64,000 nt of DNA, from positions 67,778-131,777 of the forward strand of contig JBBSGK010000001.1 of the NCBI GenBank assembly GCA_038254115.1. The letters run 5' to 3'. Under the pieces are notes generated by a model. It had not been told where the DNA came from. It saw only the letters and a program-made list of their open reading frames with translations, and did not search any database. This DNA comes from Candidatus Levyibacteriota bacterium (lineage in GTDB: Bacteria > Patescibacteriota > Microgenomatia > Levybacterales > UBA12049). A program made the position numbers and the translations under genes. Of this stretch, positions 1 to 15,955 are shown in pieces. Positions within the stretch are counted from its first letter, which is position 1; every line of letters begins with the position of its first letter.

Positions 1-336
1 TTTAAACCCGAACTGCTTAACCGTTTTGATGATGTGATAACGTTTAAACCTCTTGGTGAGGAGCAGGTCACACAAGTAGTGCAATTGATGCTTAACAGTT
101 TGACAAAAGATATGGAGGAGCAGGACATAAAGTTGGTTTTTGAGCCGGCCGTGATTGAAAAAATCGGCCAAGAAGGTTTTGATCCGGAATTTGGCGCCCG
201 CCCATTACGGCGCTATATTCAGGACAATATTGAAGACATGATCGCGCAGAAAAAATTGACAAAAGAACTTGATAGGGGAAAAACAGCTACTTTCTCAATC
301 GACGGTACAGGGGCGCTTAAGCTTACGGTTTCATAG
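1..336 (+). CDS. Clp/Hsp100-family ATPase (ClpB/ClpC-like), C-terminal fragment; the gene starts upstream of the window
   Basis: Frame 1 from base 1 reads FKPELLNRFDDVITFKPLGEE...GARPLRRYIQDNIEDMIAQ, matching the D2-small/C-terminal domain of Clp ATPases. Stop codon at 334-336. Confidence 0.8.
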   Translation, partial: FKPELLNRFDDVITFKPLGEEQVTQVVQLMLNSLTKDMEEQDIKLVFEPAVIEKIGQEGFDPEFGARPLRRYIQDNIEDMIAQKKLTKELDRGKTATFSIDGTGALKLTVS

Positions 337-344
337 GTCTTAAT

Positions 345-703
345 CGTCATTCTGGCTTGTCCAGAATCTCTAATATGAAAGGTGGTTATGTTTACGTCAT
401 GTCAAATATTAGTCAAACCTTATATACAGGAGTTACTAGTAATCTAATAGGAAGAATCTATCAACACAAAAATAATCAGGTAAAAGGGTTTACTCAAAAA
501 TACAATCTACATATGCTGGTTTATTATGAGGTTCTGGACGGAATAACTTCAGCCATAATAAGAGAGAAACAAATCAAAGATATGAATAGAGCAGAAAAAT
601 TAAATATGATTTATAAATTTAATCCAGAGTTTAAAGATTTATACGATCAAATAATAACGTGAGAGATTCTGGAGTCGTCGCTTCACTTCTCCCCAGAATG
701 ACG
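345..703. mobile_element. Inverted-repeat/hairpin-bounded cassette carrying a single GIY-YIG gene (candidate miniature mobile element)
   Basis: Left end cgtcATTCTGGcttgtCCAGAATctc (345-370) is the exact reverse complement of the arms of the right end gagATTCTGGagtcgtcgcttcacttctccCCAGAATgacg (663-703). Each end is itself a 7-bp hairpin. A related solo copy (attctgttccagaatgac) lies at 15866-15883. Confidence 0.4.
375..662 (+). CDS. GIY-YIG nuclease superfamily protein (YhbQ/UPF0213-like), about 95 aa
   Basis: GGYVYVMSN...LYTGVTSNLIGRIYQHK matches the GIY-YIG/URI domain. The ORF track gives 357..662; the start is set here at MKGG. The gene ends with TGA. Confidence 0.75.
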   Translation: MKGGYVYVMSNISQTLYTGVTSNLIGRIYQHKNNQVKGFTQKYNLHMLVYYEVLDGITSAIIREKQIKDMNRAEKLNMIYKFNPEFKDLYDQIIT

Positions 704-754
704 ATAGATACTGTTTATTGATTTAAAAGTCAAGGTTGTTAGATTGAGCTTAAT

Positions 755-1933
755 TTGTTATACTGTAGACCAATTATGCCAGCCATACAACGATCAGAAT
801 TTTCATTAGCGCTTAATCAGGTAGCCTCCGAGCGGGGGGTTGATGTTGATGTTGTTTTGGACACCGTCAAGAACGCTATTTTGGCTGCGTACCGCAAGGA
901 TCATTCGGGTGTTGAGATTGAAGAATTTGATGCAGAATTGAACCCAAATACAGGCGAAGCACACATCCTGCATAATGGAAAAGATGTAACACCACCTGGA
1001 TTTGGCAGGATCGCTGCCCAAACAGCAAAGCAGGTAATCTTGCAGAAAATCCGCGAAAAAGAAAAAGAGGCTATCTTTACAGACTACCGTGTAAAAATAG
1101 GTACAGTTATAAATGGTATGGTTCTGCGGTTTGCGGGAGTAAACATCATCGTAGACATAGGAAAAACTGAGGCCATCATGCCACTTTCTGAGCAAGTACC
1201 AAATGAAAAATACCACCTAAATCAGCGGCTCGGATTTTACATGCTTGATATAAGAGAGGGAATGAAGGGTGACGAGATAGTGGTATCACGGGCAGCAAAC
1301 GGTTTGGTTGAGGGGTTATTTAAAAGAGAAGTTCCTGAGATAGCCCAAGGAAGTGTTGAGATAAAAGCAATTGTGCGTGAACCGGGAAATAGATCCAAAG
1401 TCGCCGTTTTTTCCGCACAACCGGGTATTGATCCTGTCGGGTCTTGTGTCGGACAAAAAGGCGTACGGGTCCAGGCAATTATCCAGGAACTGGGCGGACT
1501 TGAAAAAGTCGATATTATCCAGTGGGCAGATGAGCCAAAGACATATATCGCTCAAGCTCTGTCTCCAGCCAAAAATGTACGGGTAGAGATTAATGAAGAG
1601 GAAAAAATTGCGCGGGTTTTTGTACCTACTGAGGAATTGTCTTTGGCGATTGGCAAAGAAGGTCAAAATGTACGCCTCGCACACAAGCTTACAGGATATA
1701 GAATTGAAATAGAAGGCAAAGAGGAAGCGGGAGAGATAGAAGGGTCTGCGTCAAACGCGGCTGAGGCAGAAGAGACCAAGCCTTCGTCAAAGGCTTCGGT
1801 GGGCGAGACGAAAGTTGAAGCAGACTCTAAAGATTTAGAAAAAGAAGAAGCAAAGCCAAAGGCAGCAAAAGCCAAAAAAGCACCAGCCAAAACAAAAAAA
1901 GTAAAAGAGGAAAAAGTAGAAGAGGAAAAATGA
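755..1933 (+). CDS. nusA: Transcription termination/antitermination factor NusA with a K/E/A-rich C-terminal tail
   Basis: NusA N-terminal domain, S1 and KH domains are recognisable (e.g. GKEGQNVRLAHKLTGYRIEI). The start may instead be at the internal Met at 776. Confidence 0.9.
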   Translation: MLYCRPIMPAIQRSEFSLALNQVASERGVDVDVVLDTVKNAILAAYRKDHSGVEIEEFDAELNPNTGEAHILHNGKDVTPPGFGRIAAQTAKQVILQKIREKEKEAIFTDYRVKIGTVINGMVLRFAGVNIIVDIGKTEAIMPLSEQVPNEKYHLNQRLGFYMLDIREGMKGDEIVVSRAANGLVEGLFKREVPEIAQGSVEIKAIVREPGNRSKVAVFSAQPGIDPVGSCVGQKGVRVQAIIQELGGLEKVDIIQWADEPKTYIAQALSPAKNVRVEINEEEKIARVFVPTEELSLAIGKEGQNVRLAHKLTGYRIEIEGKEEAGEIEGSASNAAEAEETKPSSKASVGETKVEADSKDLEKEEAKPKAAKAKKAPAKTKKVKEEKVEEEK

Positions 1934-2107
1934 ATAACGTGGGAATTTTCAATTTGAAATTTGAAATTACCTTGTCATGCTGAACTTGTTTCAGTATCTC
2001 ATATAAATCGCATGGATCCCGAAATAAATTCGGGAGGACAAGAATAGAAGTGAAAATTCAATGAAAATTAAAAATTTTAAATTAAAAATTAGATTAGGAT
2101 ACAAACT

Positions 2108-5623: not shown

Positions 5624-5723
5624 CTCTGACTTCAAAAATTGTCATGCTGGATTAACTTCAGCATCTCCAGATTCTGAAAAGATCAGGATGGCAACCAAGA
5701 AGGACGAAAGAACAGAAATATAA

Positions 5724-15233: not shown

Positions 15234-15860
15234 ATGATTAGGTTTGGGCAAAGACTGAAAGACGAAAGAATTAGGCGTATGCTGACGCTTGATGACGTTT
15301 CGGTTGCCACCAAAATCAAGCGCGATTTTCTTGCTGCCATTGAGCGCGAAGCTTACGATGAGTTGCCTTCTCCTGCGTATGCAAAAGGCTTTGTCCAAAA
15401 TTATGCGGATTTCCTCGGACTTCCAAAAATCCAAAGCTCAGCACTTTTCAAACGTGATTTTGATGAAAAAAGAGCAATGAAAGTATTGCCTGAGGGAATG
15501 ACAAATTCGCGGACCATTCCTTTAAAACGAGTCAATATAAGAAGTTTTGTTGTTGGAGGATTAATTCTATTAATGCTAGCCGGTTTTTTCTTATTCCAAA
15601 CCCGGGATATGTTATTCGCGCCTTCAATCCATATTACATCACCAAAAGAAGGAAGCGTTGTTTCGCGTGATGTTGAGGTAGCGGGTACGACAAGCAGCAA
15701 CGGTATAGTTACAATAAACAATAATCCGGTATTTGTAAAAGATAGTGGAGTGTTTGTTAAAAAAATTACACTTTTCCCAGGTAAAACAACAATAATAATA
15801 AAATCAAAAAACAGATTGGGTAAAGAGTCCTCTCAAACTGTAAACCTGATTGTGAAATAA
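15234..15860 (+). CDS. RodZ-like HTH (XRE) membrane protein
   Basis: The N-terminal HTH FGQRLKDERIRRMLTLDDVSVATKIKRDFLAAIE is followed by a TM segment and a C-terminal beta domain. Confidence 0.65.
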   Translation: MIRFGQRLKDERIRRMLTLDDVSVATKIKRDFLAAIEREAYDELPSPAYAKGFVQNYADFLGLPKIQSSALFKRDFDEKRAMKVLPEGMTNSRTIPLKRVNIRSFVVGGLILLMLAGFFLFQTRDMLFAPSIHITSPKEGSVVSRDVEVAGTTSSNGIVTINNNPVFVKDSGVFVKKITLFPGKTTIIIKSKNRLGKESSQTVNLIVK

Positions 15861-15955
15861 TATAAATTCTGTTCCAGAATGACTACAAATGAATACAATT
15901 GATTCTAATTGTTTTGCTTGACAGTCCACTTTTCATAAGGTAACGTATATAGACT

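What the first reader, a model, noticed from the sequence alone, without database searches (positions are those of the whole stretch)
345..703. GIY-YIG nuclease gene bounded by self-palindromic terminal inverted repeats, with a solo repeat copy elsewhere
The about 95-aa GIY-YIG ORF is inserted precisely between the clpB 3' end and nusA. Its ends are cgtcATTCTGG-cttgt-CCAGAATctc and the exact reverse complement gagATTCTGG-(20 nt)-CCAGAATgacg, each forming its own 7-bp hairpin. A near-identical solo hairpin (attctgttccagaatgac) sits immediately after the RodZ-like gene at 15866-15883. This looks like a cargo-carrying MITE or REP-like mobile cassette rather than an ordinary housekeeping YhbQ gene.
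Basis: seen in the sequence. Interest (0 to 1): 0.6.

Follow-up and report, generated by a model that had tools for sequence, protein, structure and literature searches.

The report
Ssn ssDNA nuclease with cognate hairpins

Summary
A 95-aa GIY-YIG ORF (375-662) sits between the clpB 3' end and nusA. It is bracketed by CGTC-ATTCTGG-loop-CCAGAAT-C hairpins in inverted orientation (345-371 and 662-703), 2 matches against 0.01 expected by chance.

It is not a YhbQ/UPF0213 gene. It is a member of the Ssn family (Chenal et al. 2025, PMC11893778): 49% identity to the N. gonorrhoeae SsnA orthologue (E 2e-29), with the residues matching the mutated Y6, Y17 and E64 conserved. The hairpins carry the two determinants that paper mapped: GTC 5' of the palindrome and C 3' of it. 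They do not match the published degenerate search motif.

Across 129 homologue loci, 120 have such oriented hairpins next to the gene, and the stems covary. Relatives with 92-97% identical NusA have clpB-nusA without the cassette, and 143 loci fall into 78 genomic contexts. So gene and hairpins relocate together, but no target-site duplication was found and the cassette occurs once in this window. Some contexts are inherited vertically.

Verdict: a new member of a known kind. "REP-like" is right; "cargo-carrying MITE" is not shown. Whether the cassette moves by itself remains open.

The parts
34..336 (+). 3' end of clpB (D2-small domain), the left flank of the insertion
   Evidence: Pfam PF10431, E 1.1e-24. 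Conserved in relatives L007-L009 and L150-L152.
345..371 (+). Left Ssn-related hairpin in '+' orientation: CGTC-ATTCTGG-cttgt-CCAGAAT-CTC. It ends 3 nt (7 nt counted from the C after the palindrome) before the ATG.
   Evidence: An identical 26-mer sits upstream of the homologue in L001, in a ruvA-ruvB context.
375..662 (+). ssn gene: a 95-aa single-domain GIY-YIG nuclease of the Ssn family
   Evidence: Pfam GIY-YIG, E 1.2e-13. 49% identity and E 2e-29 to N. gonorrhoeae SsnA. Y7, Y17, G19, R27, H31 and E64 are conserved among 133 homologues.
662..703 (-). Right Ssn-related hairpin in '-' orientation. On the minus strand it reads CGTC-ATTCTGG-ggagaagtgaagcgacgact-CCAGAAT-CTC. It starts at the last base of the stop codon.
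   Evidence: The nearest downstream hairpin is in '-' orientation in 90 of 97 homologue loci.
724..775 (+). Conserved nusA upstream (promoter-like) region, the right flank of the insertion
   Evidence: Aligns with L007-L009, L150 and L151.
1974..2039 (.). Gene-less inverted doublet of Ssn-related-like hairpins in the nusA-infB spacer. 1974-1998 (+) is GTC-ATGCTGAA-cttgt-TTCAGTAT-C. 2015-2039 (-) is GTC-CTCCCGAA-tttat-TTCGGGAT-C, with one mismatch.
   Evidence: The spacer is 174 nt here, against 25-30 nt without hairpins in L007, L009 and L150.
5641..5692 (.). Second gene-less inverted doublet, intergenic. 5641-5665 (+) is GTC-ATGCTGG..TTCAGCAT-C. 5670-5692 (-) is degenerate, with GCC instead of GTC and one stem mismatch.
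15866..15883 (-). Solo degenerate hairpin, GTC-ATTCTG-gaa-CAGAAT-T. It lacks the C after the palindrome.

Best explanation
Window 345-703 is an Ssn cassette. It consists of a 95-aa single-domain GIY-YIG nuclease of the Ssn family and, on each side, one copy of its cognate oriented hairpin (an Ssn-related motif, SRM).

By homology with the characterised Neisseria and Wolbachia enzymes, the protein most likely binds the hairpin only when the DNA is single-stranded. That happens in incoming transforming DNA, in replication or recombination intermediates, or in extruded cruciforms. It should read the palindrome plus the C that follows it, and cut the same strand a few nucleotides 5' of the GTC.

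In this CPR clade the two copies face outwards. The predicted cuts therefore lie just outside the cassette, near 336-344 on the top strand and near 704-712 on the bottom strand.

The likely biological effect is control of recombination or transformation of hairpin-bearing DNA, together with maintenance and spread of the hairpins. This parallels the REP-associated tyrosine transposases (RAYTs) and their REP repeats.

**What is shown.**
- Family membership by sequence.
- The architecture and orientation rule.
- Stem covariation.
- The presence/absence polymorphism.

**What is inferred.** The ssDNA cleavage, the cut positions and the biological role.
For: **Published system.** SsnA is a 94-aa GIY-YIG, site-specific ssDNA nuclease. 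It binds CGTCATTCCCGCGMAVGCGGGAATCYRG and cuts upstream of it. The nucleotides 5' of the palindrome govern cleavage, and the C after it governs binding. 42% of homologues are flanked by the motif on both sides (PMC11893778).

**The window protein.**
- 49% identical to the N. gonorrhoeae orthologue, E 2e-29.
- That orthologue is itself embedded in canonical Neisseria Transformation Sequence (NTS) hairpins.
- The Y6, Y17 and E64 equivalents are conserved.

**Both window hairpins** have CGTC 5' of the palindrome and C 3' of it.

**Comparative support.**
- Of 129 homologue loci, 120 have an oriented hairpin within 150 nt and 86 have one on both sides.
- Orientation is '+' upstream in 84 of 109 and '-' downstream in 90 of 97.
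- 314 of 323 palindromes have GTC on exactly one side, and 312 of those 314 have C on the other.
- Among 33 variant stems, 28 carry compensatory changes and 5 do not.

**Host context.** Patescibacteria are reported to be naturally competent, with comEC and pili (PMC12455944).
Against: - No biochemistry exists for this protein or for any CPR member.
- The published degenerate motif does not match the window hairpins (0 hits), and matches only 8 of 144 loci. The stem is 7 bp rather than about 9.
- The long-loop right hairpin is not thermodynamically distinctive.
- The paper reports that changing the palindrome sequence while keeping the structure abolishes Neisseria SsnA activity. Specificity for ATTCTGG therefore has to be assumed to have co-evolved.
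- Copy number is low, about 7 hairpins in 64 kb, unlike the hundreds of copies in Neisseria.
- In Neisseria the copies nearest the gene face inwards, the opposite of the arrangement here.
Confidence: 0.82

Rival explanations
1. The hairpin-ssn-hairpin unit is itself an autonomous mobile element (IS-like). The hairpins are its ends, and Ssn supplies the end-cleaving activity on single-stranded DNA. This would be analogous to IS200/IS605 'peel and paste', but with a GIY-YIG nuclease. It is not exclusive of the best explanation.
For: - Close relatives (NusA 92-97% identical) have clpB-nusA without the cassette, including clean short spacers of 56 and 132 nt.
- An identical left hairpin and a 78%-identical protein lie between ruvA and ruvB in another genome.
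- 143 homologue loci fall into 78 different flanking contexts.
- The outward-facing hairpins put the predicted cuts just outside both ends.
- One Myxococcales MAG carries three 97-99% identical copies of a roughly 519-bp ssn unit with roughly 90-bp terminal inverted repeats, next to TTAA.
- Gene-less inverted hairpin doublets occur in spacers that are short and hairpin-free in relatives.
Against: - No target-site duplication or precise junction could be defined at clpB-nusA.
- There is one cassette in the window, and one hit per genome in 57 of the 58 genomes scanned.
- secF-ssn persists in at least 9 loci, with SecF down to 63% identity. ruvA-ssn-ruvB persists in genomes whose RuvA is only 34-40% identical. 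Both indicate long vertical residence.
- GIY-YIG nucleases hydrolyse DNA without a covalent intermediate, by established knowledge of the superfamily. Strand transfer would therefore need other factors.
- The characterised enzyme cuts only one strand orientation.
- The same spacer holds unrelated small genes in other relatives, so it may simply be a hot spot.
Confidence: 0.3
2. The hairpins act at the RNA level. The upstream one would be a 5'-UTR element controlling translation of the nuclease, and the downstream one a terminator or stabiliser. They would not be DNA substrates.
For: - The upstream hairpin ends 1-17 nt before the start codon in most loci.
- The downstream one overlaps the stop codon in about 35 loci.
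- Covariation preserves pairing, which RNA structure would also explain.
Against: - The nearly invariant asymmetric flanks (GTC 5' and C 3'; 312 of 314) are exactly the determinants mapped for ssDNA binding and cleavage by SsnA, which does not bind RNA.
- The two copies are on opposite strands. Only one could be in sense orientation in a single transcript with the conserved flank pattern.
- No T-run follows the downstream hairpin.
- No Rfam family matches.
- Gene-less doublets occur elsewhere.
Confidence: 0.1
3. The gene is an ordinary housekeeping YhbQ/UPF0213-type GIY-YIG gene, and the nearby palindromes are incidental.
For: The protein is small and single-domain, and it sits between housekeeping genes.
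Against: - The UPF0213 structure 1zg2 matches only at E 0.28.
- The palindromes are far beyond chance.
- The palindromes travel with the gene into different contexts.
- The gene is absent from the same site in five close relatives.
Confidence: 0.02

Closest known systems
Ssn family of site-specific ssDNA nucleases with NTS/SRM hairpins (SsnA of Neisseria meningitidis; Chenal et al., Nat Commun 2025, PMC11893778)
   Same: - A single-domain GIY-YIG protein of about 95 aa, 49% identical to the gonococcal orthologue.
- The catalytic Tyr, Tyr and Glu are conserved.
- The gene is flanked on both sides by oriented hairpins with CGTC 5' of the palindrome and C 3' of it.
- Further hairpin copies lie in intergenic regions.
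   Different: - The stem is ATTCTGG (7 bp) rather than ATTCCCGCG.
- Loops come in two classes: the 5-nt cttgt, and long loops of 14-26 nt.
- The published degenerate search motif does not match.
- The copies nearest the gene face outwards, whereas they face inwards in N. gonorrhoeae.
- The stop codon often lies inside the hairpin in relatives.
- Copy number is low.
- The host is a CPR/Patescibacteria (Microgenomates-like) genome, a group the paper does not mention.
REP elements and REP-associated tyrosine transposases (RAYTs), including REPIN doublets
   Same: - A single-copy nuclease gene flanked by its own short palindromic repeats.
- Dispersed intergenic copies, some as inverted doublets.
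- Largely vertical inheritance with occasional relocation.
   Different: - The enzyme is a GIY-YIG hydrolytic nuclease, not an HUH/Y1 transposase.
- No covalent-intermediate chemistry is available for strand transfer.
- The repeats number a handful per 64 kb rather than hundreds per genome.
IS200/IS605 insertion sequences (ssDNA 'peel and paste')
   Same: The ends are subterminal hairpins recognised as single-stranded DNA, and the element is small.
   Different: - There is no HUH TnpA and no TnpB.
- The two hairpins here are inverted copies of one motif, not distinct left and right ends.
- Transposition has not been demonstrated.
UPF0213 / YhbQ small GIY-YIG proteins (for example B. halodurans BH0048, PDB 1zg2)
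   Same: The same fold superfamily and a similar size.
   Different: Only marginal sequence similarity (E 0.28). No association with oriented hairpins is known to me.

Membership tests
Ssn nucleases (cd10448) | Single-domain GIY-YIG protein of about 94-100 aa with no extra DNA-binding domain | tested here: met
   95 aa. Pfam GIY-YIG covers residues 4-77, with no other domain.
Ssn nucleases (cd10448) | Homology to Neisseria SsnA at E < 1e-10 (the paper's criterion) | tested here: met
   tblastn E 2e-19 against the N. gonorrhoeae chromosome. Pairwise BLASTP gives 49% identity, E 2e-29. The gonococcal ORF is 94 aa and NTS-flanked. That it is the SsnA orthologue is inferred.
Ssn nucleases (cd10448) | Catalytic or cofactor residues whose mutation abolished cleavage (Y6, Y17, E64) | tested here: met
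   Window Y7, Y17 and E64 align to them. They are conserved in 132-133 of 133 homologues.
Ssn nucleases (cd10448) | Assignment to CDD model cd10448 and placement in the Ssn clade of the GIY-YIG tree | not testable with these tools
   No CDD library is available. Indirect support: far closer to SsnA (E 2e-29) than to UPF0213 (E 0.28).
Ssn nucleases (cd10448) | Gene flanked by Ssn-related hairpins: a palindrome with conserved GTC 5' and C 3' | tested here: met
   Both window copies have these features. 120 of 129 homologue loci have such hairpins. The flank rule holds in 312 of 314 cases.
Ssn nucleases (cd10448) | Hairpins match the published degenerate SRM search sequence HGTCWYN(0-2)YYVSBRHN(0-5)WNVSBRGN(0-2)RNCYNB | tested here: not met
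   0 matches in the window and 8 of 144 loci, against 9 matches in 3.3 kb of N. gonorrhoeae. This is the authors' search tool rather than a definition, and it was built from 29 genomes of 4 phyla.
Ssn nucleases (cd10448) | Cleaves only ssDNA, strand-specifically, a few nt 5' of the hairpin | not testable with these tools
   Needs purified protein and oligonucleotide assays.
UPF0213 / YhbQ | Significant sequence similarity to UPF0213 members | tested here: not met
   Best PDB hit is 1zg2 (UPF0213 BH0048) at E 0.28. No NCBIfam equivalog reaches its cut-off.
MITE / classical TIR transposon | Terminal inverted repeats | tested here: met
   An 11-nt plus 10-nt inverted match split by the loops.
MITE / classical TIR transposon | Target-site duplication at the junctions | tested here: inconclusive
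   Alignment with the empty sites in L150 and L151 shows 7 nt on the left and about 26 nt on the right that do not align, and no clear duplication.
MITE / classical TIR transposon | Multiple near-identical copies in one genome | tested here: not met
   One ssn in 64 kb. Only degenerate or variant hairpins occur elsewhere. The rest of the source genome was not available.
REP/RAYT | HUH/Y1 (Y1_Tnp) transposase | tested here: not met
   The protein is GIY-YIG. The resemblance is functional analogy only.
GIY-YIG homing endonucleases (I-TevI type) | Nuclease domain joined to a sequence-specific DNA-binding domain, targeting an element-free allele | tested here: not met
   There is no additional domain. 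In the characterised Ssn the recognised site is the hairpin carried by the element itself.

The most novel reading that the evidence does not exclude
The hairpin-ssn-hairpin cassette is a self-mobilising element of a new mechanistic class. A GIY-YIG ssDNA nuclease would cut 5' of outward-facing hairpin ends. Host repair or replication would then relocate the unit and seed gene-less hairpin doublets. Such an element would be a hydrolytic-nuclease counterpart of IS200/IS605 and REP/RAYT. The evidence that does not exclude this:
- Empty sites in close relatives.
- 78 contexts among 143 loci.
- A three-copy unit bounded by terminal inverted repeats in a Myxococcales MAG.
- Doublets inserted in otherwise short spacers.
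Probability: 0.25. Interest if true: 0.75.

Novelty: new member of a known kind. Interest (0 to 1): 0.33.

Why it matters
The finding places the recently described Ssn nuclease and hairpin system in CPR/Patescibacteria. These are ultra-small, probably naturally competent episymbionts. A nuclease that cuts hairpin-tagged single-stranded DNA in them could shape DNA uptake and recombination.

It also shows that the published search motif misses a whole hairpin class: a 7-bp ATTCTGG stem with two loop classes. Current censuses therefore undercount the system. New enzyme and site pairs are of practical interest as ssDNA-cutting tools.

The comparative data assembled here bear on the one question the original paper left open, which is whether the cassette is mobile. 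They comprise empty sites, many genomic contexts, and a multi-copy unit bounded by terminal inverted repeats in a Myxococcales genome.

Tried and rejected
- **Rfam.** A scan of the whole window at gathering thresholds found nothing. There are no tRNA or tmRNA genes to act as integration sites.
- **Generic repeat finder.** It did not surface the hairpins among 733 inverted pairs.
- **Literature.** Searches on GIY-YIG with hairpin and mobile terms, on YhbQ and on COG2827 returned only organellar or phage homing endonucleases or nothing useful. The decisive paper came from 'GIY-YIG' plus 'repetitive extragenic palindrom'.
- **Supplements.** None are held for that paper, so the N. meningitidis SsnA sequence could not be taken from it. 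The gonococcal orthologue was recovered instead from a chromosome mislabelled as a plasmid in PLSDB.
- **Source contig.** An exact look-up of the window protein's contig failed, so the rest of the 136-kb contig could not be scanned.
- **Phages.** Only distant GIY-YIG hits.
- **Shared context.** The apparent link with L012 and L093 is only a ClpB-like ATPase at 44% identity, located downstream of ssn there, not the same site.
- **Candidate target-site duplication.** A 4-nt 'ATAG' was considered and rejected as too short and not adjacent to the left hairpin.
- **Relaxed hairpin scan.** A short-loop scan of the window gave 3 hits against about 1 expected, so it does not by itself show dispersal. 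The specific patterns do.

Full report
**1. The observation.**
- After the clpB stop codon (334-336) come 8 nt, then CGTC-ATTCTGG-cttgt-CCAGAAT-CTC (345-371).
- Next comes an ATG at 375 opening a 95-codon ORF that ends with TGA at 660-662.
- Overlapping the last base of the stop is GAG-ATTCTGG-(20 nt)-CCAGAAT-GACG (662-703).
- The flanks and stems of the two copies are exact reverse complements. Only the loops differ.
- The palindrome pattern occurs twice in 64 kb against 0.01 expected.
- The ORF is a GIY-YIG domain protein (Pfam E 1.2e-13). Its neighbours are the ClpB C-terminal domain and NusA.
- The solo copy at 15866-15883 is real and non-random: GTCATTCTG-N-CAGAAT gives 3 hits against 0.00 expected.
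- That solo copy is degenerate. It has a 6-bp stem and T where every good copy has C. It lies 6 nt after the stop of ORF 15234-15860.
- As ssDNA the short-loop left hairpin is clearly stable (-5.2 kcal/mol, z -5.3). The long-loop right one is not distinguishable from shuffles.

**2. What it is.**
- The protein has about 800 close homologues, mostly on contigs from CPR/Patescibacteria of the Microgenomates type, such as Levybacteria and Woykebacteria.
- The window's NusA also has its named best relatives there.
- The first two homologue loci already showed the pattern.
  - In L001 (78% identical protein) the gene lies between ruvA and ruvB. The identical 26-nt left hairpin precedes it. It is followed by GATCCTGG-actcgg-CCAGGATGAC, a compensated variant.
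  - In L002 it lies after secF, with three hairpins upstream in alternating orientation and two downstream. The stop codon lies inside CCAGAATGAC.

**3. The literature.**
- A literature search found the published description. Chenal et al. 2025 (PMC11893778) define the Ssn family (CDD cd10448).
- These are single-domain GIY-YIG proteins of about 94 aa that bind a hairpin repeat only as single-stranded DNA.
- In Neisseria the repeat is the NTS, CGTCATTCCCGCGMAVGCGGGAATCYRG. More generally the repeats are called Ssn-related motifs (SRM).
- The enzymes cut the same strand a few nucleotides upstream of the repeat.
- The nucleotides just 5' of the palindrome control cleavage, and the C just after it is the most important base for binding.
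- The reverse strand, dsDNA and RNA are not substrates.
- 71% of homologues have an SRM nearby, and 42% have one on both sides.
- In N. meningitidis the enzyme lowers transformation by NTS-bearing DNA.
- The authors note that NTS-ssnA-NTS looks like an insertion sequence and compare it with REP/RAYT, but only as a hypothesis.
- CPR/Patescibacteria are not mentioned.

**4. Membership tests.**
- PLSDB holds two N. gonorrhoeae chromosomes mislabelled as plasmids. The window protein hits them at E 2e-19.
- The gonococcal ORF is 94 aa and sits in an array of canonical NTS hairpins.
- Pairwise identity is 49%, E 2e-29. The residues corresponding to the mutated Y6, Y17 and E64 are conserved.
- They are near-invariant among 133 homologues, together with G19, R27 and H31.
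- The best solved UPF0213/YhbQ-type structure matches only at E 0.28, so 'YhbQ' is the wrong label.
- Both window hairpins carry CGTC 5' of the palindrome and C 3' of it.
- The published degenerate SRM search string does not match them. It gives 0 hits in the window and hits in 8 of 144 loci, although it finds 9 in 3.3 kb of gonococcal DNA.
- The ATTCTGG hairpin is therefore a variant that the published search tool misses, while it keeps the experimentally mapped determinants.

**5. Comparative anatomy.**
- Scans of genome and metagenome collections gave 140 further loci.
- Of 129 loci with at least 150 nt on both sides, 120 have an oriented hairpin (GTC-stem-loop-stem-C) within 150 nt of the gene, and 86 have one on both sides.
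- The nearest upstream copy is '+' in 84 of 109, usually 1-17 nt before the ATG.
- The nearest downstream copy is '-' in 90 of 97, and in about 35 loci it contains the stop codon.
- Searched without any flank requirement, 314 of 323 AT[TC]CTGG...CCAG[AG]AT palindromes have GTC on exactly one side. Of those, 312 have C on the other side.
- Among distinct hairpins with a variant base in either arm, 28 are compensated on the other arm (ATCCTGG/CCAGGAT, ACTCTGG/CCAGAGT, ATGCTGG/CCAGCAT) and 5 are not.
- Loops fall into a 5-nt class (mostly cttgt) and long classes of 14, 20 and 22 nt and above.

**6. Is it mobile?**
- Five close relatives (NusA 92-97% identical) keep clpB-nusA-infB but have no ssn and no such hairpins.
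  - L007 has an HTH-PIN pair plus an antisense ORF in the spacer.
  - L008 and L009 have antisense ORFs there.
  - L150 has a clean 56-nt spacer, and L151/L152 a 132-nt spacer.
- These loci were also scanned for hairpins and compared in sequence.
- Alignment shows the cassette as an insertion between the clpB stop and the conserved nusA upstream region.
- Seven nt on the left and about 26 nt on the right do not align, and there is no convincing target-site duplication.
- The 143 loci fall into 78 flanking contexts.
- Against frequent hopping, three points stand out.
  - secF-ssn recurs in at least 9 loci, with SecF down to 63% identity.
  - ruvA-ssn-ruvB recurs in three genomes whose RuvA is only 34-40% identical.
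  - All but one scanned genome gave a single hit.
- The exception is a Myxococcales MAG (47% identical protein). It has three 97-99% identical copies of a roughly 519-bp unit with roughly 90-bp terminal inverted repeats, abutting TTAA.
- Overall this looks like a resident, mostly single-copy gene that travels with its hairpins and occasionally relocates. That resembles RAYT/REP. Genuine transposition-like behaviour appears in at least one lineage.

**7. Other hairpins in the window.**
- Two gene-less inverted doublets with the same outward-facing arrangement lie in intergenic spacers.
  - 1974-1998 (+) with 2015-2039 (-), between nusA and infB.
  - 5641-5665 (+) with 5670-5692 (-).
- Their stems are of an ATGCTGAA/ATCCCGAA class, and the second member of each pair is degenerate.
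- The nusA-infB spacer is 174 nt here, against 25-30 nt without hairpins in L007, L009 and L150.
- Similar doublets occur near ssn in L023, L032 and L034.
- A relaxed scan shows that total copy number in the window is low.

**8. Mechanism.**
- Shown: family membership by sequence, intact catalytic residues, the oriented hairpin architecture, stem covariation, and the presence/absence polymorphism.
- Inferred from the characterised homologues:
  - The protein binds each hairpin when the DNA is single-stranded and cuts a few nt 5' of GTC. That places cuts just outside the cassette, near 336-344 on the top strand and near 704-712 on the bottom strand.
  - It thereby affects recombination or transformation of hairpin-bearing DNA.
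- Patescibacteria are reported to be naturally competent (PMC12455944).
- Whether the enzyme also spreads the hairpins or the cassette is unknown.

**9. Verdict.**
- The system was published in 2025, and this is a new member with a variant hairpin in a new host group.
- Interest is modest (0.33). The open mobility question is the part worth pursuing.

Noticed in passing
window 1974-2039 and 5641-5692: Two gene-less inverted doublets of Ssn-related-like hairpins with outward-facing GTC, in intergenic spacers. The stem class (ATGCTGAA/ATCCCGAA, loop cttgt) differs from the class flanking ssn. They look like REPIN-style or 'empty cassette' derivatives. The nusA-infB spacer is 25-30 nt and hairpin-free in relatives L007, L009 and L150.
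   Followed up: partly
L052, L053 and L054 (Myxococcales MAG CAZBMJ01), about 2362-2884 in each: Three 97-99% identical copies, on three contigs, of a roughly 519-bp unit. Each is an ssn homologue (47% identical to the window protein) between roughly 90-bp terminal inverted repeats. TTAA abuts both ends in L052, the right end in L054 and the left end in L053. L053 has CATATTAA on both sides, a possible 8-bp duplication. This is the clearest transposon-like behaviour seen in the family.
   Followed up: partly
L007 1633-2841, L008 2152-2922, L009 2523-2921 (the clpB-nusA spacer of close relatives): In other strains the same spacer holds unrelated small genes: an HTH_17 + PIN_3 toxin-antitoxin-like pair, and antisense ORFs of 101-136 aa. 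The site is therefore a hot spot for accessory insertions, not specific to ssn.
   Followed up: partly
about 35 homologue loci, e.g. L002 4279-4301 and L012 2776-2798: The ssn stop codon TGA lies inside the downstream hairpin (CCAGAATGAC). The last seven or so residues (e.g. ..ILDKPE*) are therefore encoded by the hairpin. In the window the stop precedes the hairpin instead.
   Followed up: no
L001, L042, L044 (ruvA-ssn-ruvB); L002, L075, L083, L084, L090-L092, L094, L103 (secF-ssn): The cassette recurs at the same two housekeeping junctions in quite divergent genomes (RuvA 34-40% identical, SecF 63-78% identical). This implies either long vertical residence or repeated insertion at preferred sites.
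   Followed up: partly
PLSDB records NZ_CP119140.1 and NZ_CP119142.1 (L005): These 2.17-Mb 'plasmids' of N. gonorrhoeae are evidently chromosomes. They carry the ssnA orthologue inside a dense array of NTS hairpins (16 in 3.3 kb).
   Followed up: no
L006 (Planktothrix agardhii plasmid p1, 850-1450): An ssn homologue (54% identical) sits between an MmeI-type restriction-modification gene and DISARM drmA. It is flanked by GTCATTCTGAG-type hairpins and by a tandem 'ttctcctgtgctgtcattctgag' repeat. An Ssn cassette inside a defence island may be worth a look.
   Followed up: no
loci L010, L012, L013, L017-L019 and others: Many contigs labelled 'uncultured Gammaproteobacteria' or 'Pseudomonadales' (TPA MAGs) carry ssn cassettes 61-69% identical to the CPR one, with the same ATTCTGG hairpins. 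Either the taxonomic labels are unreliable or the cassette has crossed phyla.
   Followed up: no
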